Source of the DNA: an uncultured Actinomycetota bacterium
GTDB taxonomy: Bacteria > Actinomycetota > Actinomycetes > Sporichthyales > Sporichthyaceae
NCBI GenBank assembly: GCA_963703165.1
Contig: OY969798.1
Span: 4,622,585-4,686,584, forward strand
Direction: 5' to 3'
Length of the DNA: 64,000 nucleotides
A program made the position numbers and the translations under genes. The notes under the pieces are model-generated. The model made no database searches. It had not been told where the DNA came from and saw only the letters and a list, made by a program, of their open reading frames with translations. This document shows, one piece after another, positions 40,064 through 51,366 of this stretch. Positions within the stretch are counted from its first letter, which is position 1; each line of letters begins with the position of its first letter.

Positions 40064-41902
40064 CTACGCAGGTTCGAAGGCTCCGGCGGCGCAGCGGTCG
40101 GGGCCACCGCTGCCGGGGCGGGCGACTCCGCGTTGGTCGGTGCCGAAGGCTCCGGTGCACAGGCCGCTGAGCACGGTCACGGCGGTGGCCGCCGGGCTGT
40201 CCGGGGCGACCGCGCGGGTGCGGGTGAGTCCACCGTTGTTCGCGAGCCCGCCCAGGCCGGCTCCGACCTCGGGGATGACGCGGCTTCCGGCGCCTGCGCG
40301 GACGCACGTCGTGTCGGAGGCGACGTTCCACCCGGCATCGATCAGTGGCGCGTTGAGCAGCAGGCAGTCGCTCGAGGTCCCGTTGTCGAACAGCGAGGCC
40401 GCCAGCGTCGTCGGGGCGTTGCTCACCAGACCCGCGGCGGTCTCGCTGGGCATTCCCGAGGTCCCCGAGGTGCTGCCCTTGCCTCCTGCGCCTGCCGCGC
40501 CGCCGAGGGCGCCGACGTTGGCCACGGCCGTCACGTGCATCGCGCTGTTGGTCATCGTCGCTGTGGGCCCGGCCAACATGATCAGGCCCGCAGCGACACT
40601 GCCGCCATCCCCACCGTCGCCGCCGGCCCTGGACCGCCCGACCCGCGCCAGGCCCGCCCGCCCGCCGGCGCCACCGGCTCCGGCGCGGTTGCCGCTGAAC
40701 GTGCTGTCGGAGAACCCGGTCACGGCCACGGTGCTCGAGGTGGTGGCCACGGTGCCCATGGCGGCGCCGCCGTTGCCACCGCGTCCGCCGTTGCCCGCGG
40801 GCAGGTAGGGGGAGGAGGTCCCACCCGGTCCGCCCACTCCGCCGACCGCGCCGCGGTGTCCGGACAGCGTGCTGCCGTCGACGGACAACTGCGGGCCCAG
40901 GTAGCTGATCCCGACGGCATCCCCGCCCTGACCGCCCTCGCCGCCGCTCGCGCCAGGCTTGCCCGCCACACCCTTGCCGCCGCGGCCGCCCCGGTTCCCG
41001 CTCAGTTCGGAATCGACGAACTCAGCTTTCGCGTCCGGTGCCGCCGTGTGGATGGTGGTCGAGTACGCGTCGCCGCCCCCGGCTCCGGTCCCGCCTCGCC
41101 CGCCGCGCAGGCCGCCGATCTCGCTCGCGACGACCCGCAGGCGACCGTCGGTGTTGACCCCGATCGCGGAGCCCCCCGCGCCGCCCAGCAGCGCGCTACG
41201 TGGACCGCGCGACCCGGAGCCGCCCGCGCCGCCACGCAGGTCGGTGATCCGCACGCCGTGGAGTTCCGTCGGACCGCCGATGCGGTCGATTCCGTACACC
41301 GATCCGCCCTCGCCTCCGGTGGTGTCCGTGGCGGCAGCGCCCTGTCCCCCGGTCAGTCGGTCGATGCGGACGTCGCTCACCTGCAGCAGGGCGGTTCCCG
41401 CCGCCTTGATGCCGGTCACGTAGGACCCGTGCCCGCCGCTGCCCGGCACCGCGTCGAAGCCGTGACCGGTGATCCGCAGCCCCTCCACGCGGACCGGGCG
41501 CTCGAAACCGGCGGCGATGGTCAGGGCCACCACTTCGGTGCTCTCGGGCAGCGGGGCCAGCAGGGTCGTGGCCGCGGAGCCGGCGCCGGCGATCGCCAAC
41601 GAGGCGAGCGACCCACGGCTGATGTGCACGCCGCCGTCGCGGGCGAAGAACGTGCCCGGTCCGATGCGGATGACGACGTCCCGCCCGGTCGCGGCGGGAC
41701 CCGCCGCGAGGTCGACGGCCTGCTGCAGATTGCGGCACGCGTGCGTCGAATCAAGGCAGTCGTTGTCCTGGGATCCCTCGCTCGCGACGAAAAGTTCGTA
41801 CGGGATCACAGCGGCCGACGCCGACGTCACGGGCAGCCCGGCGATGAGCATCGCGGCCAGCGCGATCACCGTTCGACGAATCCTGAGGGGGGCAGGGATC
41901 AC
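40064..41902 (-). CDS. secreted Gly-rich right-handed beta-helix protein (choice-of-anchor-Q-like)
   Basis: The GTG at 41902 gives signal peptide VIPAPLRIRRTVIALAAMLIAGLPVTSASA. Then an N-terminal CxxxxC module, long GGxGGxG-type repeats, and the C-terminus CAAGAFEPA. Confidence 0.5.
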   Translation of the reverse strand: MIPAPLRIRRTVIALAAMLIAGLPVTSASAAVIPYELFVASEGSQDNDCLDSTHACRNLQQAVDLAAGPAATGRDVVIRIGPGTFFARDGGVHISRGSLASLAIAGAGSAATTLLAPLPESTEVVALTIAAGFERPVRVEGLRITGHGFDAVPGSGGHGSYVTGIKAAGTALLQVSDVRIDRLTGGQGAAATDTTGGEGGSVYGIDRIGGPTELHGVRITDLRGGAGGSGSRGPRSALLGGAGGSAIGVNTDGRLRVVASEIGGLRGGRGGTGAGGGDAYSTTIHTAAPDAKAEFVDSELSGNRGGRGGKGVAGKPGASGGEGGQGGDAVGISYLGPQLSVDGSTLSGHRGAVGGVGGPGGTSSPYLPAGNGGRGGNGGAAMGTVATTSSTVAVTGFSDSTFSGNRAGAGGAGGRAGLARVGRSRAGGDGGDGGSVAAGLIMLAGPTATMTNSAMHVTAVANVGALGGAAGAGGKGSTSGTSGMPSETAAGLVSNAPTTLAASLFDNGTSSDCLLLNAPLIDAGWNVASDTTCVRAGAGSRVIPEVGAGLGGLANNGGLTRTRAVAPDSPAATAVTVLSGLCTGAFGTDQRGVARPGSGGPDRCAAGAFEPA

Positions 41903-42117
41903 CCAGTAGGGACGCGGCGCGCGGGCGCTCGGTGCCGTCGCTCGCCCAAGTGGGGCCGTGTAGGTGACGGGACATGTCCGGAACGTGCGGGCGTGACGGA
42001 TCGGTCCCTCACCGCCCTTGTTCGCCGAACCTCCGGCCCCCACTGATGATCTTGGCAGCGCGGGATGTCCTCTGTCGGCCTCAAGATCACCTGCAGTGTC
42101 CAAAATCCGCACGTGGC

Positions 42118-43776
42118 TCAGCAGGCCGGGCGGGTGGTCATCGCTCCGCACAGATCGCCGTCCGATCGACCGTCCGGGGCCTCGTCGTCCCCGCCGTCGC
42201 CGGATGGTCCGGAACCCCCGCCGCCCGACATGCTCGGGGTGGGTTCGAACGCGCCGGCAGCGCAGGGGGAGCCCAGCCGTGGCACTCCGCGTTGGTCGGC
42301 TCCCTCGCACAGCGGCCCGTCGGTCACCGCGGTGGCGGCGATGCTGTCGCGCCGGATGGAAATGGTGCGGGTCGTTCCGGGCGGGTTCGGTGCCAACGCC
42401 CCCAGGACGTTGTCTCCGGAGAACACGACCCCGAACTCGGTCGTGTCGGGCACGGAGACGGTGGTGAAGGGGCACGGTCCCACGCCGATCACGTTGAACC
42501 CACCGTCGCTGAGGATGTCCAGGTTCGGATCGGCAACCTGGCAGTTGACCTGATTGCTCAGCAGCGACGCCGACATGATGACGGTGGACGGCTGGATCAC
42601 GTTGCCGCCGATCACAAGACCGGCGTCGTAGACGGCATCGGCACCGGGGGCGCCCAGAGAACCGCCCGCGCCGCCCGAGCCGACGGGCCCGGCGGCGTTG
42701 TTCACGATCGTCACATGGCGGAGGTCGCCGTTGCCGGCGTCCTCGACCCATACCCCAGCACCTGATCCGGCTTGACCGCCCGCACCGCCGGGAGCGGTCG
42801 TGGCCGCTCCGCCCGTTCCGCCCGCTCCGCCGGCGTTGAACGCGAACGTGCTGTCGGTGACGTCGACGGCCGCCCCGTCGACGTAGAGGCCGGCACCGTC
42901 CCCGCCCCCGCCGCCCGCCCCGCCGAGAACTGCGTTGGTGGACTGGGCCCCGCCGTCCCCGCCCGCGCCGCCGACGATCGAGGCGAAGGTCGAGTTGTCG
43001 ATGGTGAGGGCGCCGGTGCCGAAGTGATCGACCCCGTAGGCGTCCCCGCCGAGCCCGCCCGGGTCGCCCTCCGTGCCGCCCTCGCCCGCCCCCGCTGCAC
43101 CGCCGACCACATCTCTGATCTCGGTGTTGGTGATCTCGACAGGACTCGTGCCGCCGATGGAGATCCCGATGGTGTCGCCGCCCCCCTCGCCCGCACCGTT
43201 CAGCCCCTCTTCGTCCCTACCGTCCCCGCCGGCGAGGTCCTCGATGAGCACACCGCGGACGGTTGCCAGGCTGCCGCCGTAACCGGCGCGAATGCCGGTC
43301 ACGTCAGCGCGGAAGCCGGGGGTCCCGCCGGCGGCGATGCGCAGGTCGGCGATGGTGACCGGAAAGTTGGCGCTGTCCTCGACCGCCGTGTAGGCGAAGC
43401 TGCCGTACACCGCGGTCCGTAACGTCGTGCCCACCAGGGGGTTGTCGTCGGTACCCGCACCGATGATGGTCAGCGACTGGACGCTGCCCTCGTCGGTGGG
43501 GATGCGGACCGTAAATTCTGGGACGTAGTCGCCGGCCGCGATCCGGATGGTGATGTCGCCCGTCAGGTCGAGGGCCTCGTTCACGGCATGCTGGACGGTG
43601 GCGCAGGGATCCGCCGCGACCTGGCAGTTGTTGGTCGTGTCGCTGCCGGTGTCGTCGACCCAGAGCGTCTCGTTCGCCGCGTACGCCGAGGGGGCGAACA
43701 GGGCGCCCAGGCCCGCAATGGAAAGAGTGACGACGAGACCGGTGGCGGGACGGCGACGCGCGTGAGACTGAGGCAT
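42118..43776 (-). CDS. secreted Gly-rich right-handed beta-helix protein (paralog of 40064..41902)
   Basis: Signal peptide MPQSHARRRPATGLVVTLSIAGLGALFAPSAYA. N-terminus LWVDDTGSDTTNNCQVAADPCATVQHAVNEA. GGAGG repeats. ...CAAGAFEP followed by a Gly/Ser tail. Confidence 0.55.
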   Translation of the reverse strand: MPQSHARRRPATGLVVTLSIAGLGALFAPSAYAANETLWVDDTGSDTTNNCQVAADPCATVQHAVNEALDLTGDITIRIAAGDYVPEFTVRIPTDEGSVQSLTIIGAGTDDNPLVGTTLRTAVYGSFAYTAVEDSANFPVTIADLRIAAGGTPGFRADVTGIRAGYGGSLATVRGVLIEDLAGGDGRDEEGLNGAGEGGGDTIGISIGGTSPVEITNTEIRDVVGGAAGAGEGGTEGDPGGLGGDAYGVDHFGTGALTIDNSTFASIVGGAGGDGGAQSTNAVLGGAGGGGGDGAGLYVDGAAVDVTDSTFAFNAGGAGGTGGAATTAPGGAGGQAGSGAGVWVEDAGNGDLRHVTIVNNAAGPVGSGGAGGSLGAPGADAVYDAGLVIGGNVIQPSTVIMSASLLSNQVNCQVADPNLDILSDGGFNVIGVGPCPFTTVSVPDTTEFGVVFSGDNVLGALAPNPPGTTRTISIRRDSIAATAVTDGPLCEGADQRGVPRLGSPCAAGAFEPTPSMSGGGGSGPSGDGGDDEAPDGRSDGDLCGAMTTRPAC

Positions 43777-43834: not shown

Positions 43835-47458
<3,624 letters not shown>

Positions 47459-47469
47459 GTGGCGTCCTG

Positions 47470-47625
47470 TCTCGGGGTCCGCGCCCCGGATCGGCGGATC
47501 GGCGACCGGGAGTTCCTGGCTTCCGGGCTGGGCCCGGTCACAGTCGCGGGACGGCACCGGCCTCGAACCGGTTTCCTCCGCTGGTCGTCGATGAACTGCG
47601 GCAACTCTGACACACCGGCCAGTCG
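47470..47625 (-). promoter_or_regulatory. candidate cobalamin (B12) riboswitch in the cobN 5' leader
   Basis: Minus-strand leader: GGAGGAAACCGGTTCGAGGCCGGTGCCGTCCCGCGACTGTGACCGGGCCCAGCCCGGAAGCCAGGAACTCCCGG. The core GGAA.CCGGT..GA..CCGG..C.GTCCCGC.ACTGT and a B12-box-like GCCAGGAACTCCC follow the cobalamin riboswitch consensus. Confidence 0.5.
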
Positions 47626-47699
47626 GGCCCCGCGTCTACGCTGGGGCTGCGGCGCCTTGCGACCGCGGCGAGCAGGAGAACGGGTCAGGAGCGCGACGG

Positions 47700-48272
47700 A
47701 TGTCGTTGTCGGTGGTGAGTGACACGCTCACGCGGGAGCAGCTCGCGCGGGGGGCGTCGGTTCGCATACCGATGACGTGGGAAGAGTGGCAGGCCCTCGG
47801 CGAGACCAAGCACTTCGAATGGTCCGAGGGAGTCCTGTACGTGAACCCGCCGAATCGTTGGCATGTACTCGTGGCCAAGCGCCTCACTCGCCTGCTGGAC
47901 GACGTCGCCCCACCGGGGACGGTCGCCTACCCGGAGTGGGGACTGCGCACGACCGGTGGCGACTTCGAACCGGACATCATGCTTGCGGCCGAGGACCAAG
48001 CCGACGTCGAGCATTACACGACGGTGATACCTCTGCTCGTGGTGGAGGTCGGGTCGCCCACCACTCGCGATCTGGACAAACAATTGAAGTTCTCGGCCTA
48101 CGCGCAAGCAGGCGTCTCCTGGTACTGGATTGTCGATCGCGACCTGCTCACCGTGTACGAGAACGTCGACGGCACGTTCGTGGAGCGCCAGCGGGTCGAG
48201 GCCGGTTCGCCGCAGAACACGGTGGGGCCCGTCGGTCTGCTGCTCGACCCGAGCACCCTCACCGACCGCTGA
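47700..48272 (+). CDS. Uma2-family (DUF820) PD-(D/E)XK endonuclease
   Basis: Typical Uma2 layout (EWQALGETKHFEWSEGVLYVNPP...PDIMLAAED...LLVVEVGSPTTRDLD...KFSAYAQAGVSWYWIVD). Confidence 0.65.
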   Translation: MSLSVVSDTLTREQLARGASVRIPMTWEEWQALGETKHFEWSEGVLYVNPPNRWHVLVAKRLTRLLDDVAPPGTVAYPEWGLRTTGGDFEPDIMLAAEDQADVEHYTTVIPLLVVEVGSPTTRDLDKQLKFSAYAQAGVSWYWIVDRDLLTVYENVDGTFVERQRVEAGSPQNTVGPVGLLLDPSTLTDR

Positions 48273-48319: not shown

Positions 48320-49213
48320 GTGACCGCCCCCTCCACCCGCCGCTCCGGGCCCGACCTCTGTCCTGGGGTCCGGTCCGTGTGGTCGGCGGCCGACGGGGGA
48401 CTGGCGCGGGTCCGGATCCCCGGCGGGCGACTCTCCGCCGATCAGCTGCGCCTGCTTGCCGACGCTGCTGACGACCTCGGCAACGGGCTCCTGGAGCTCA
48501 CCGTCCGCGCGAACGTGCAGGTCCGCGGGTTGAGTGCCGGGCGTGAGCAGGATCTCGCTGCCAGGTTGCGGGTCGGCGGACTGCTGCCCAGCGACACCCA
48601 CGACCGCGTCCGCAACATTCTCGGCTCGCCGCTGGCCGGCGGCGGACGGTCGCGGACCTGATCTCTACCCTCGACGAGGAACTCTGCGACCGGCCCGCGC
48701 TCGAGGCGCTGCCCGGCCGATTCCTCTTCGCCCTCGATGACGGCTCAGCCGACGTCGCCGCGCTCGGGGCGGACGTCGGGGCCGATCGTCGTCGGGGGGT
48801 CTGTTCGCGCTGCTGCTCGGTGGCGCGCCGTGCGGCCGGTGGGTCGCTGCACGAGGACGTCGTCGCGACGCTGCTGGCGGCCGCCGAGGCGTTCCTCGAC
48901 GAACGCGGTGCGCAGTGCTCGCCGGCCTGGCGTCTCGCCGGAATTGACTGACGGACCGTCACGGGTGCTCGCAGGCGTCGCCCAGCGTGTGTCGCTGGCT
49001 GACGCAGGAACGGCGGTTCCCGACCTGTCGGAGCCGAACGCGCCGAGCGGTCCCGAGGTCGTCGAGGTGCCGGACGGCAGGCTGACCAGTGCGCGGGCCC
49101 GGGAGATCGCGGCCATGGGCGACGACCTTCGGGTGACGCCGTGGCGCAGCATCGTCGTGCCGGCGCCTGTTGACCGCAGGGAACACGCATCGCAAGGTGG
49201 GGGAGTGAAGTGA
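48320..49213 (+). pseudogene. cobG: precorrin-3B synthase CobG, multiply frame-switched and/or truncated
   Basis: N-terminal segment GGLARVRIPGGRLSADQLRLLADAADDLGNGLLELTVRANVQVRGL (48320..48661). The middle segment TVADLISTLDEELCDRPALEALPGRFLFALDDGSADVAALGADVG is readable only in another frame. The C-terminal segment VPDGRLTSARAREIAAMGDDLRVTPWRSIVVPA is back in the first frame. Total length is only about 298 codons. Its stop overlaps the cobH start (GTGA). Confidence 0.45.
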
Positions 49214-49849
49214 GTACCGAGTTGGACTACGTGCGCGACGGGACGGAGATCTACCGCCGCTCGTTCGCGACCATCCGGGCCGAGGCGAACCTCGACCGGC
49301 TGCCGCCGGACGTCGCGCAGGTCGCCGTGCGCATGATTCATGCGTGCGGCATGGTCGACCTCGTCGATGATCTGAGGTGGAGTCAGAACGTGGTGGGTGC
49401 CGCGCGGGCGGCCCTCCGCAACGGTGCTCCGATCCTGTGTGACGCGACCATGGTGGCGTCCGGTATCACCCGCAAGCGGTTGCCCGCCGACAACGAGATC
49501 CTCTGTCTGCTCAGCGACCCGCAGGTTCCCGAGCTGGCCGCGGCGATGGGCAACACGCGTTCGGCTGCCGCCGTCGATCTGTGGGGCGACCGCCTGGGCG
49601 GTGCGGTGGTGGCCTTCGGCAATGCGCCCACTGCCCTGTTCCGACTGCTGGAGCTGCTCGCCGACGGCGCCCCGCGTCCGGCCGCGGTGCTCGGGCTGCC
49701 CGTCGGCTTCATCGGGGCCGCGGAGTCCAAGGACGCGTTGGCGGCAAGTCGACCAGGAGTACCTGCTGGTTCGTGGTCGCCGCGGGGGATCGGCCATGGC
49801 CGTCGCCGCCATCAATGCCATCGCCCACGAGCAGGAGCTGCCGGTATGA
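49210..49849 (+). CDS. cobH: precorrin-8X methylmutase CobH (1-nt frame switch near 49745)
   Basis: The first about 178 aa ([55 protein letters not shown]...) are in the 49210 frame. The conserved C-terminus [28 protein letters not shown] is in the 49397..49849 frame, and its TGA overlaps the cobIJ ATG. Confidence 0.65.
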
Positions 49850-51366
49850 CAGGCACCTTGTACGGCGTAGGGCTGGGGCCGGGCGACCCCGAGCTGGTGA
49901 CGGTCAAGGCGGCCCGGTTGCTCGCGAGCGCGGAGGTCATCGCGTTCCACTCCGCCCGACACGGCAACAGCGTGGCGCGCGGGATCGCGGAGGAGTACCT
50001 CAACGGCAACCAGGTCGAGGAACCCCTTCGGTATCCGGTGACAGTCGAGACCACCGACCACCCCGGCGGGTACCGCGGCGCGCTCGAGGAGTTCTACGAC
50101 GACGCGGCCGCACGCCTCGCCGTCCATCTGGACGACGGCCGCGACGTGGTCGTGCTCTGCGAGGGCGACCCGCTCTTCTACGGCTCCTATATGCATCTGC
50201 ACAAGCGCCTGGCCGACCGGTACCCAGCGGTCGTCGTCCCCGGTGTGACCTCGGTGGCCGGCGCCGCGGCGGAACTGGGCCGCCCGCTGGTCGAGGGCGA
50301 GGAGGTGCTGACGATCCTGCCCGGAACCCTGCCGCCGACCGTGCTCGCCGAACGCCTGGCCGCAGCCGACTCGGTGGCCATCATGAAGCTGGGTCGCACC
50401 TTCACCGGGGTGCGCGACGCCCTCGCGGCATCCGGGCGCCTCGACGAGGCCTGGTACATCGAGCGAGCGACCACCGATCGGCAGCGCATCGCACCGTTGA
50501 GCGAGGTCGAGCCGGCGAGCGTGCCCTACTTCTCCCTTGCGCTGCTCCCGAGCAAGCTCTCGCCGGGACTGCGTGCGGCCGCCGCCCCCGATGCGGTCGA
50601 GCAGATCGCGACCGGGCGGGGCGAGGTCGTCGTGGTCGGCCTCGGGCCGGCCGGGCGGGACTGGCTGACCCCGCAGGCACAAGCCGCGCTGTCCGCGGCG
50701 GAGGATCTCGTCGGCTACGGCCCGTACCTGGACCGCGTTCCGCCCAACCCGCGCCAACGCCGCCACGCCTCGGACAACCAGGTGGAGGACGTCCGCGCCG
50801 AGTTCGCCCTCGATCTGGCCCGGCGTGGGCGCCGCGTCGCCGTTGTCTCCTCCGGGGACCCCGGCATTTTCGCGATGGCCGCCGCGGTGCTCGAGGCCGC
50901 CGAGGGCCAGGAGTACAAGGACGTCCCGATCCGGGTGCTGCCCGGACTGACCGCCGCGGCCGCCGTGGCCAGCCGGGTCGGCGCCCCGCTCGGCGGTGAC
51001 TTCTGCGTGCTCTCGCTGTCCGACCGACTCAAGCCGTGGGAGCTCATCGAGAAGCGCTTGTCCGGTGTGGCCGCCGCCGATCTGGTCATCGCCATCTACA
51101 ACCCCGCCTCGAAGTCCCGGACCTGGCAGTTGGCCCGGGCCCAGGAACTGCTGCTGGAGCACCGGGGACCGGACACCCCGGTCGTCATCGGGCGCGACGT
51201 CGGTGGCCCGGCCGAGCGGATCGTGGTGCGTACCCTCGCCGACCTCGACCCCACCGAGGTCGACATGCGGTGCCTGCTGATCGTCGGCTCCTCGACCACC
51301 CGGCTGCTCACCCGCGGCGACGGATCGGTCGCCGTTCTGACGCCCCGTCGCTGCACCCCCGCCTGA
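49846..51366 (+). CDS. cobIJ: fused precorrin-2 C20-methyltransferase / precorrin-3B C17-methyltransferase CobIJ
   Basis: Two tetrapyrrole methylase domains ([26 protein letters not shown]...; [24 protein letters not shown]...). Length is 506 aa. ATGA overlap with cobH. Confidence 0.85.

What the first reader, a model, noticed from the sequence alone, without database searches (positions are those of the whole stretch)
47470..47625. Candidate cobalamin riboswitch in the cobN leader
The minus-strand leader contains the conserved B12-element core (GGAAACCGGTTCGAGGCCGGTGCCGTCCCGCGACTGTGACC) and a B12-box-like GCCAGGAACTCCC ending about 40 nt before the cobN start codon. This implies feedback control of cobalt insertion by adenosylcobalamin.
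Basis: partly seen in the sequence, partly recalled or inferred. Interest (0 to 1): 0.5.

Follow-up and report, generated by a model that had tools for sequence, protein, structure and literature searches.

The report
Cobalamin riboswitch before cobN
The leader of the cobalt-chelatase gene cobN carries a real but ordinary vitamin-B12-sensing riboswitch of the compact type, so B12 most likely shuts off its own synthesis here by blocking translation of cobN.

Summary
Both quoted strings sit exactly where stated on the minus strand. Rfam RF00174 gives its only hit in the window at 47626..47490 (-): 37.7 bits against a gathering score of 31.5, E 5.6e-6.

The gene downstream is cobaltochelatase CobN (TIGR02257 1103 bits, cutoff 822; ATG at 47458). 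It lies in an aerobic-type cob cluster.

The same element precedes cobN in 76 of 80 actinomycete relatives. Its helices covary.

I revise the anatomy to a compact 91-nt aptamer (47590-47500):
- P1 adjoins P3 directly and there is no P2.
- P6 is a short hairpin without the P7-P11 extension, which is a class-II-like architecture.
- A conserved hairpin, P13 (47488-47473), follows. Its loop is complementary to L5 (kissing loop) and it abuts the Shine-Dalgarno sequence.

The most likely mechanism is a translational OFF switch. There is no intrinsic terminator.

The parts
47604..47609 (-). Putative -10 promoter hexamer CAGAGT, preceded by TGT (inferred, weak). The transcription start would then lie near 47599-47596.
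   Evidence: Relatives carry TANNNT or nAGAGT hexamers at the same offset upstream of P1, several with TTGACN about 18 nt further upstream. The simple sigma-70 scan found nothing. No transcript data are available.
47583..47590 (-). P1, 5' strand CGACGACC. It pairs with 47507-47500 with one A.C mismatch.
   Evidence: Cognate 5'/3' flanks pair at -14.2 kcal/mol against -10.9 for permuted partners: z -10.6, 0 of 20000 permutations. Six of 8 P1 pairs show changes on both sides. Rfam's alternative P1 further upstream has 7 of 12 non-standard pairs.
47573..47582 (-). J1/3 AGC (47582-47580), P3 5' strand GGAG (47579-47576), and J3/4 GAA (47575-47573). Together with G47576 the last two give the conserved GGAA motif.
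   Evidence: Rfam alignment. P3 was recovered by RNAalifold. P3 is 87% paired in 19 sequences.
47556..47572 (-). P4 hairpin ACCGG/CCGGU with loop L4 UUCGAGG. UUCGA is a canonical T-loop sequence, where relatives have UGCGA.
   Evidence: P4 is 99% paired and 2 pairs show compensatory change. The role of L4 as a T-loop that docks L6 comes from PMC7367189 and PMC6158498.
47545..47553 (-). P5 (CG/CG) with loop L5 UCCCG (47551-47547), the aptamer half of the kissing loop.
   Evidence: P5 covaries: CG in the window and L002, GC elsewhere. L5 is complementary to L13 and the two co-vary across relatives.
47516..47544 (-). P6: CUG (47543-47541) pairs with CAG (47518-47516). Inside it is a short hairpin CCGGG/CCCGG (47537-47533 with 47527-47523) with loop CCCAG. 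There is no P7-P11 extension.
   Evidence: Rfam model positions 90-150 (61 nt) are replaced by 7 nt. All 5 pairs of the hairpin show compensatory changes.
47508..47522 (-). B12 box region AAGCCAGGAACUCCC. It includes J6/3 GAA (47515-47513) and the P3 3' strand CUCC (47512-47509).
   Evidence: J6/3 is GAA here, whereas it is GAGA in 23 of 26 long-form relatives and never GAGA in short forms.
47500..47507 (-). P1, 3' strand GGUCGCCG.
47489..47499 (-). Single-stranded linker J1/13, AUCCGCCGAUC. It is part of an 8-nt tandem duplication, GCCGAUCC x2, at 47503-47488.
   Evidence: Read directly from the sequence. The linker is not conserved in relatives.
47473..47488 (-). P13 hairpin CGGGG/CCCCG with loop L13 CGCGGA (47483-47478), the regulatory half of the kissing loop. 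Proposed pairs are U47551-A47478, C47550-G47479, C47549-G47480, C47548-G47482 and G47547-C47483, with C47481 bulged.
   Evidence: GGGGCG[C/A]GGACCCC is conserved 21-30 nt after the B12 box in most relatives. P13 is 96% paired and its outer pair covaries. L5 UCCCG goes with L13 CGNGGA, and L5 UCGCG with L13 CGCGA...
47456..47468 (-). Shine-Dalgarno AGGA (47468-47465), a 6-nt spacer, and the cobN start codon ATG (47458-47456).
   Evidence: CobN homologues align from residue 2-6 of this start. In relatives the start codon lies 13-20 nt after P13, with an SD-like motif 0-5 nt after P13.
43835..47458 (-). cobN, the regulated gene (1207 aa).
   Evidence: Pfam PF02514, 1289 bits. NCBIfam TIGR02257 cobaltochelatase subunit CobN scores 1102.8 bits (cutoff 822). 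BchH scores 659, below its cutoff of 829.

Best explanation
This is a cobalamin (B12) riboswitch in the 5' leader of cobN, built on the compact, class-II-like plan. P1 leads directly into the four-way junction P3-P4-P5-P6. P6 is a short hairpin, and there is no P2 arm and no P7-P11 extension. When a cobalamin is bound in the junction, loop L5 (UCCCG) pairs with loop L13 (CGCGGA) of the downstream hairpin P13 to form a kissing loop. P13 ends 4 nt before the Shine-Dalgarno sequence AGGA and 15 nt before the ATG. Docking P13 onto the ligand-bound aptamer therefore most likely keeps the 30S subunit off the start site and switches cobN translation off. Loss of translation may secondarily lower the mRNA level. 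The result is end-product feedback on the cobalt-insertion step of aerobic B12 synthesis. Shown here: family membership, the helices and their covariation, L5/L13 complementarity and co-variation, the fixed P13-SD-start spacing, and the identity of the gene. Inferred: ligand binding itself, the isoform sensed, occlusion of the SD as the regulatory step, and the promoter position.
For: - RF00174 hit above the gathering score, unique in the window.
- CobN is identified by an equivalog model and sits in a cob cluster with CobG, CobH-I-J, CobK and CobL.
- The core is present upstream of cobN in 76 of 80 relatives by pattern. Twelve of 15 sampled loci pass Rfam's gathering score.
- My structure on 19 short-form sequences: 92.2% of cells paired against 37-48% for slid controls, 15 pairs with compensatory change, covariation score 0.242 against 0.081 shuffled, 0 of 500 shuffles as high.
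- RNAalifold independently recovers P3, P4, P5, P6 and P13.
- P1: cognate against permuted flanks gives z -10.6.
- Kissing loop: L5 UCCCG always goes with L13 CGNGGA. In the 16 Mycobacteriales loci, L5 UCGCG always goes with CGCGA/U...
- P13 to start-codon distance is 13-20 nt in most distinct leaders, with the SD abutting P13.
- No intrinsic terminator.
- The KL-based translational mechanism is established for class-II switches (PMC5028336). L5-L13 kissing loops are common to all classes (PMC7367189).
Against: - The Rfam score is modest (37.7 bits), because the model expects the P6 extension and a P2 arm.
- The first third of Rfam's alignment is poorly paired.
- MFE folding of the leader is no more stable than shuffles (z +1.89).
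- Within the short-form set, the kissing-loop nucleotides are invariant. The KL covariation therefore rests mainly on one clade-level switch (Mycobacteriales) and may reflect few independent events.
- The SD lies next to P13, not inside L13 as in env8, so occlusion is an inference.
- No binding, probing or expression data exist.
- cobG next door looks frameshifted. The pathway in this genome may be decaying, or the assembly may carry indels.
Confidence: 0.85

Rival explanations
1. The same riboswitch acts mainly at the transcript level. Ligand binding exposes the untranslated leader and early cobN mRNA to Rho-dependent termination or RNase attack, rather than acting mainly through SD occlusion.
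For: - The SD is outside L13, so direct sequestration is less obvious than in env8.
- Translational cobalamin switches are known to act together with mechanisms that control mRNA abundance (PMC5028336).
- The M. tuberculosis metE switch shows Rho-linked effects (PMC11260477).
- There is no intrinsic terminator, so any termination would have to be factor-dependent.
Against: - The tight and conserved spacing of P13, SD and start codon (13-20 nt) points to translation initiation as the controlled step.
- No C-rich, G-poor rut-like tract was identified.
- This rival is not exclusive of the best explanation.
Confidence: 0.2
2. The element is a decaying, non-functional relic of a class-I riboswitch that lost its P6 extension and no longer binds or regulates.
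For: - The Rfam score is low relative to long-form relatives (37.7 against 71-95 bits).
- L4 deviates from the family consensus (UUCGAGG).
- There is an 8-nt duplication in the linker.
- The neighbouring cobG appears frameshifted.
Against: - Every helix is intact, and P1, P5, P6 and P13 keep pairing through compensatory change.
- The L5/L13 complementarity is intact.
- The short form is shared by many genera with conserved core nucleotides.
- L4 UUCGA is still a canonical T-loop.
- Short P6 is the defining trait of functional class-II switches (PMC7367189).
Confidence: 0.05
3. The Rfam hit is a chance resemblance in G+C-rich intergenic DNA.
For: The sequence is 69% G+C and the bit score is only 6 bits above threshold.
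Against: - E-value 5.6e-6 for the whole window against all 4227 families.
- The position is directly upstream of a B12-synthesis gene.
- The element is conserved and covaries at the orthologous position in 76 of 80 relatives.
Confidence: 0.01

Closest known systems
Rfam RF00174 Cobalamin riboswitch (B12 element)
   Same: It shares the GGAA J3/4 motif, the P4 T-loop hairpin, the C-rich L5, the ACUG...GCCAG B12 box and P3. It passes the gathering score. It also lies upstream of a B12-biosynthesis gene, as is typical.
   Different: It lacks the 61 model positions of the P6 extension and has no P2 arm. The true P1 lies inside the region that Rfam aligned as P2.
Class-II cobalamin riboswitches: Cbl-IIa env8 (PDB 4FRN/4FRG), and Cbl-IIb including the M. 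tuberculosis ppe2 switch (PMC7367189, PMC5028336, PMC11260477)
   Same: - There is no P2 and the J1/3 is short.
- P6 is capped by a short hairpin.
- An L5-L13 kissing loop has an unpaired nucleotide in L13 (C47481, which is C or A in relatives), echoing the conserved bulged purines of env8.
- The output is a translational OFF switch.
- GGAA at J3/4 matches what is reported for class IIb.
   Different: - The SD follows P13 instead of lying in L13.
- J1/3 is only AGC/C, too short for the env8-type J1/3 T-loop.
- J6/3 is GAA, not the UCU reported for class IIb (PMC11260477).
- Ligand selectivity is unknown.
Streptomyces lividans/coelicolor RF00174 element upstream of cobD-cobQ-cobN (PMC8079986)
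   Same: It is an actinomycete cobalamin riboswitch governing an operon that contains cobN, and it was found with the same Rfam model.
   Different: In Streptomyces, cobN is the third gene of the operon. Here the switch sits directly before cobN, which appears to be the only cob gene in its transcription unit.

Membership tests
Cobalamin riboswitch (RF00174 / clan CL00101) | Covariance-model score at or above the curated gathering score | tested here: met
   37.7 bits against 31.5, E 5.6e-6. It is the only hit in the window.
Cobalamin riboswitch (RF00174 / clan CL00101) | Conserved four-way junction P3-P6 with a B12 box, supported by covariation | tested here: met
   92.2% of cells paired, 15 compensatory pairs, 0 of 500 shuffles as high. 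RNAalifold recovers P3, P4, P5 and P6.
Cobalamin riboswitch (RF00174 / clan CL00101) | L5-L13 kissing loop linking the aptamer and the expression platform | tested here: met
   The window shows five complementary pairs with one bulge. L5 and L13 switch together between two states across 77 leaders. The independent events are probably few.
Cobalamin riboswitch (RF00174 / clan CL00101) | Direct, specific binding of a cobalamin and ligand-dependent regulation | not testable with these tools
   This needs in-line probing or ITC and reporter assays.
Cobalamin riboswitch (RF00174 / clan CL00101) | Location in the leader of a B12 synthesis, transport or B12-independent isozyme gene | tested here: met
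   CobN is identified by TIGR02257 at 1102.8 bits. The aptamer ends 41 nt before the ATG.
Class I (Cbl-I, AdoCbl-selective) | Large P6 extension (P7-P11) and a P2 loop-stem-loop module (PMC7367189) | tested here: not met
   The 61 model positions of the extension are replaced by 7 nt. P1 adjoins P3 through AGC/C. J6/3 is GAA, not the GAGA of long-form relatives.
Class II (Cbl-II) | No P2 module, short J1/3, and a simple stem-loop on P6 (PMC7367189) | tested here: met
   The P6 hairpin is 5 bp with a 5-nt loop.
Class IIa (MeCbl/HOCbl-selective, env8 type) | Bulged J1/3 that forms a 5-nt T-loop contacting J6/3 (PMC6158498) | tested here: not met
   J1/3 is only 3 nt (AGC) opposite a single C, which is too short for the T-loop.
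Class IIb (AdoCbl-selective) | Short mismatched or paired J1/3, a short P6 hairpin, GGAA at J3/4 and UCU at J6/3 (PMC7367189, PMC11260477) | tested here: inconclusive
   J1/3, the P6 hairpin and GGAA are present. J6/3 is GAA, not UCU. The primary paper defining IIb (Polaski 2017) could not be read.

The most novel reading that the evidence does not exclude
The orthologous cobN leaders of actinomycetes form a natural series in which the P6 extension has been lost or shortened repeatedly, from 113 nt to 5 nt, even within Dactylosporangium. Each loss comes with a matching change in J6/3 (GAGA to GAA/ACA/ACC). The compact form in this window would then sense a different cobalamin isoform (MeCbl/HOCbl, or broadly any corrinoid) than its long-form orthologues, so the feedback signal on cobalt insertion differs between close relatives.
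Probability: 0.2. Interest if true: 0.45.

Novelty: already known. Interest (0 to 1): 0.15.

Why it matters
It confirms that cobalt insertion (CobN) in this actinomycete is under direct end-product control by an RNA sensor, which is useful for annotation and for reading the B12 regulon. The added value is modest:
- The anatomy is corrected to a compact class-II-like aptamer with P13 and a kissing loop. Rfam's P1/P2 alignment probably overlaps the promoter.
- There is a caution against assuming AdoCbl as the effector.
- Orthologous cobN leaders span long, short and minimal P6 forms, with co-varying J6/3 and L5/L13. This could serve as a natural test set for what determines cobalamin-isoform selectivity.

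Tried and rejected
- **Thermodynamic folding.** Folding the 201-nt leader gave an MFE no better than shuffles (z +1.89) and a structure that only partly matches the aptamer. It was not informative.
- **Promoter and terminator scan.** The sigma-70/terminator scan found nothing in 47300-47900. This rejects an intrinsic-terminator platform and leaves the promoter to comparative inference.
- **Rfam's outer P1 and P2.** I rejected Rfam's P1 (47618-47606 with 47508-47495) and its P2 hairpin. Seven of 12 P1 pairs are non-standard, and a better, covarying P1 lies at 47590-47583 / 47507-47500.
- **A longer CobN.** I rejected a CobN starting at GTG 47557, which would put the aptamer in coding sequence. 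Homologues align only from residue 2-6 of the ATG-47458 protein.
- **Direct L5-SD pairing.** L5 GUCC against the GGAC of the SD is possible in the window but is not conserved in relatives.
- **A conserved anti-SD in the linker.** None was found.
- **Source genome.** The exact CobN protein is not on record. The Uma2 look-up gave no usable DNA.
- **Literature.** Polaski 2017 (JBC) and Johnson 2012 (Nature) are not held. The class definitions were taken from PMC7367189, PMC6158498 and PMC11260477.
- **Sister-family score.** The lower-scoring overlapping hit to a sister family of the clan is hidden by the tool, so RF01482 and RF01689 scores could not be compared.

Full report
**Observation.** The 41-nt core is at 47576..47536 and GCCAGGAACTCCC is at 47520..47508. 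A scan of the whole window against all 4227 Rfam families gives a single match, RF00174 (Cobalamin), at 47626..47490 (-). It scores 37.7 bits against a gathering score of 31.5, with E 5.6e-6. Nothing else appears even at E<=1. One detail is off: the B12 box ends 49 nt, not about 40 nt, before the start codon.

**Context.**
- The ORF downstream on the minus strand (ATG 47458, stop 43835, 1207 aa) is CobN. It scores 1289 bits on Pfam PF02514 and 1102.8 bits on NCBIfam TIGR02257 'cobaltochelatase subunit CobN' (cutoff 822). The Mg-chelatase H model stays below its cutoff.
- Homologues align from residue 2-6 of this start. The longer GTG-47557 reading frame that would swallow the aptamer is therefore not the gene.
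- Upstream and divergent lies a Uma2-family gene (47700-48272).
- Next come a CobG-like remnant, a CobH-CobI-CobJ fusion ORF, an NAD-binding protein, CobK and CobL. Together these form an aerobic, late-cobalt-insertion cob cluster.
- The closest CobN relatives are Sporichthyaceae MAGs (85% and 81% identity), followed by many Pseudonocardiales, Micromonosporales and Mycobacteriales.

**Conservation.** Rfam finds RF00174 directly upstream of cobN in 12 of 15 sampled relatives. A pattern for the core finds it in 76 of 80. The element comes in three forms:
- Long forms have a 70-113 nt insert in P6 and score 71-95 bits.
- Short forms have a 17-39 nt hairpin and score 32-43 bits. The window belongs here with a 20-nt insert.
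- Minimal forms in Rhodococcus and Nocardia have only 5-6 nt. Rfam misses these at the gathering score.

**Anatomy (window coordinates, minus strand).** In Rfam's own alignment, 7 of 12 pairs of the outer P1 helix are non-standard. The 61 model positions of the P6 extension are replaced by 7 nt. Comparative analysis gives a more compact structure:
- P1: 47590-47583 (CGACGACC) with 47507-47500 (GGUCGCCG).
- J1/3: AGC, opposite C47508.
- P3: GGAG with CUCC.
- J3/4: GAA.
- P4: 47572-47568 with 47560-47556, with loop UUCGAGG. UUCGA is a canonical T-loop sequence.
- P5: CG/CG, with L5 UCCCG (47551-47547).
- P6: CUG/CAG plus a 5-bp hairpin, 47537-47533 with 47527-47523.
- B12 box, with J6/3 GAA.
- An 11-nt linker.
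- P13: 47488-47484 with 47477-47473, with L13 CGCGGA (47483-47478).
- SD AGGA (47468-47465) and ATG 47458.

**Support for the structure.** On 19 diverse short-form leaders this structure has 92.2% of cells paired, against 37-48% when partners are slid. Fifteen pairs show changes on both sides. The covariation score is 0.242 against 0.081 in shuffles, with 0 of 500 shuffles as high. RNAalifold, given no structure, recovers P3, P4, P5, P6 and P13. For P1, the cognate 5' and 3' flanks pair at -14.2 kcal/mol on average against -10.9 for permuted partners (z -10.6, 0 of 20000 permutations). MFE folding of the single sequence was uninformative (z +1.89).

**Promoter (inferred).** Relatives carry TANNNT or nAGAGT hexamers at a fixed offset 8-14 nt upstream of P1, several with TTGACN about 18 nt further upstream. 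The window has TGT-CAGAGT at 47612-47604. If this is the -10 element, transcription starts near 47599-47596. The 5' third of the Rfam alignment would then be promoter DNA rather than RNA. This is inference only, and the simple sigma-70 scan found nothing.

**Expression platform.**
- The hairpin GGGG-CG(C/A)GGA-CCCC lies 21-30 nt after the B12 box in most relatives.
- Its loop is complementary to L5: U-A, C-G, C-G, a bulged C or A, then C-G and G-C.
- The one variable loop position is exactly the predicted unpaired nucleotide. This echoes the conserved unpaired purines of the env8 kissing loop (PMC5028336).
- Across leaders the two loops switch together. L5 UCCCG is always found with L13 CGNGGA (one variant, CGGGUGA, moves the bulge). 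All 16 Mycobacteriales leaders have L5 UCGCG with L13 CGCGA/U.., giving five contiguous pairs.
- Within the short-form set the loop nucleotides never vary. The covariation therefore rests on few, possibly one, evolutionary events.
- P13 ends 13-20 nt before the start codon in most distinct leaders, with an SD-like motif starting 0-5 nt after it. In the window the distance is 15 nt.
- No intrinsic terminator is present.

**Mechanism.** L5-L13 kissing loops that are stabilised by bound cobalamin and occlude the ribosome-binding site are the established mechanism of translational cobalamin switches (PMC5028336, PMC7367189). The most likely reading is therefore a translational OFF switch. Bound cobalamin locks P13 onto the aptamer, and the adjacent SD and start become inaccessible. 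Secondary mRNA loss or Rho termination is possible. Here the SD lies beside L13 rather than inside it, so the occlusion step is inferred, not shown.

**Which cobalamin?** In class-I switches the adenosyl pocket is built with the help of the P7-P11 extension. Class II lacks P2 and the extension, and its members range from MeCbl/HOCbl-selective (IIa) to AdoCbl-selective (IIb), with intermediates (PMC7367189, PMC6158498, PMC11260477).
- The window's aptamer fits class II in architecture.
- Its 3-nt J1/3 is too short for the IIa T-loop.
- It has the GGAA of IIb but GAA instead of UCU at J6/3.
- J6/3 tracks the extension among orthologues. It is GAGA in 23 of 26 long forms and never GAGA in 39 short or 13 minimal forms. 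The pocket region has therefore changed along with the loss.

'Adenosylcobalamin' is plausible but unproven. 'A cobalamin' is the supported statement.

**Comparison and novelty.** This is a member of RF00174 at a typical location. An RF00174 element controlling a cobN-containing operon in Streptomyces is already documented (PMC8079986). Standard Rfam-based annotation would find this one. I rate it as already known in kind and of low interest. The points that go beyond routine annotation are the corrected compact anatomy, the isoform caveat, and the long/short/minimal series among orthologous cobN leaders.

**Confidence.** That this is a genuine cobalamin riboswitch regulating cobN: about 0.85 to 0.9. 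That the regulated step is translation initiation through the kissing loop: about 0.6. That AdoCbl is the preferred effector: about even.

Noticed in passing
window 48320-49213 (+): cobG (precorrin-3B synthase) looks disrupted. A relative's CobG aligns in three pieces in frames 3, 2 and 3 (48341-48634, 48658-48936, 48941-49159). The first ORF covers only model positions 3-98 of 388 and scores below the cutoff. This is either a pseudogene or assembly indels.
   Followed up: partly
window 47700-48272 (+): A Uma2-family (putative restriction-endonuclease-like) gene sits between the cobN leader and cobG. The same arrangement is seen in the Sporichthyaceae relative L001. In other relatives cobG is directly divergent from cobN.
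   Followed up: partly
window 42118-43776 (-) and within 40064-42751 (-): Two paralogous glycine-rich proteins with signal-peptide-like N-termini lie just downstream of cobN, and they share a cysteine-containing C-terminal motif. Neither has a Pfam hit and the first (42118-43776) has no NCBIfam hit. Whether they are co-transcribed with cobN is unknown.
   Followed up: no
loci L001-L080, about 100-300 nt upstream of the CobN match: Orthologous cobN leaders carry P6 inserts from 5 to 113 nt, and the length varies even within Dactylosporangium (20, 26, 34, 77, 113). J6/3 is GAGA only in long forms. Rfam's gathering score misses L001 (enlarged P4 arm) and the minimal Rhodococcus form L049.
   Followed up: partly
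L004, L006, L011, L013, L015 (Saccharopolyspora); L014, L072 (Micromonospora): In these relatives P13 and the SD lead into an ATG 15 nt downstream. This ATG opens a short upstream ORF, out of frame with cobN and overlapping its start. The arrangement is reminiscent of the riboswitch-controlled uORF of M. tuberculosis ppe2 (PMC11260477).
   Followed up: no
window 47488-47503 (-): There is an 8-nt tandem duplication, GCCGATCC GCCGATCC, spanning the end of P1, the linker and the first base of P13. It is not seen in relatives and it lengthens the J1/13 linker.
   Followed up: no
window 49210-51366 (+): A single 718-aa ORF combines precorrin-8X methylmutase (CobH), precorrin-2 C20-methyltransferase (CobI) and precorrin-3B C17-methyltransferase (CobJ). 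No riboswitch precedes this plus-strand cob operon.
   Followed up: no
window 47604-47612 (-) and the equivalent positions in relatives: -10-like hexamers (TANNNT or nAGAGT) lie at a fixed offset upstream of P1 across genera, several with TTGACN about 18 nt upstream. This suggests that the transcript begins only a few nucleotides before P1.
   Followed up: partly
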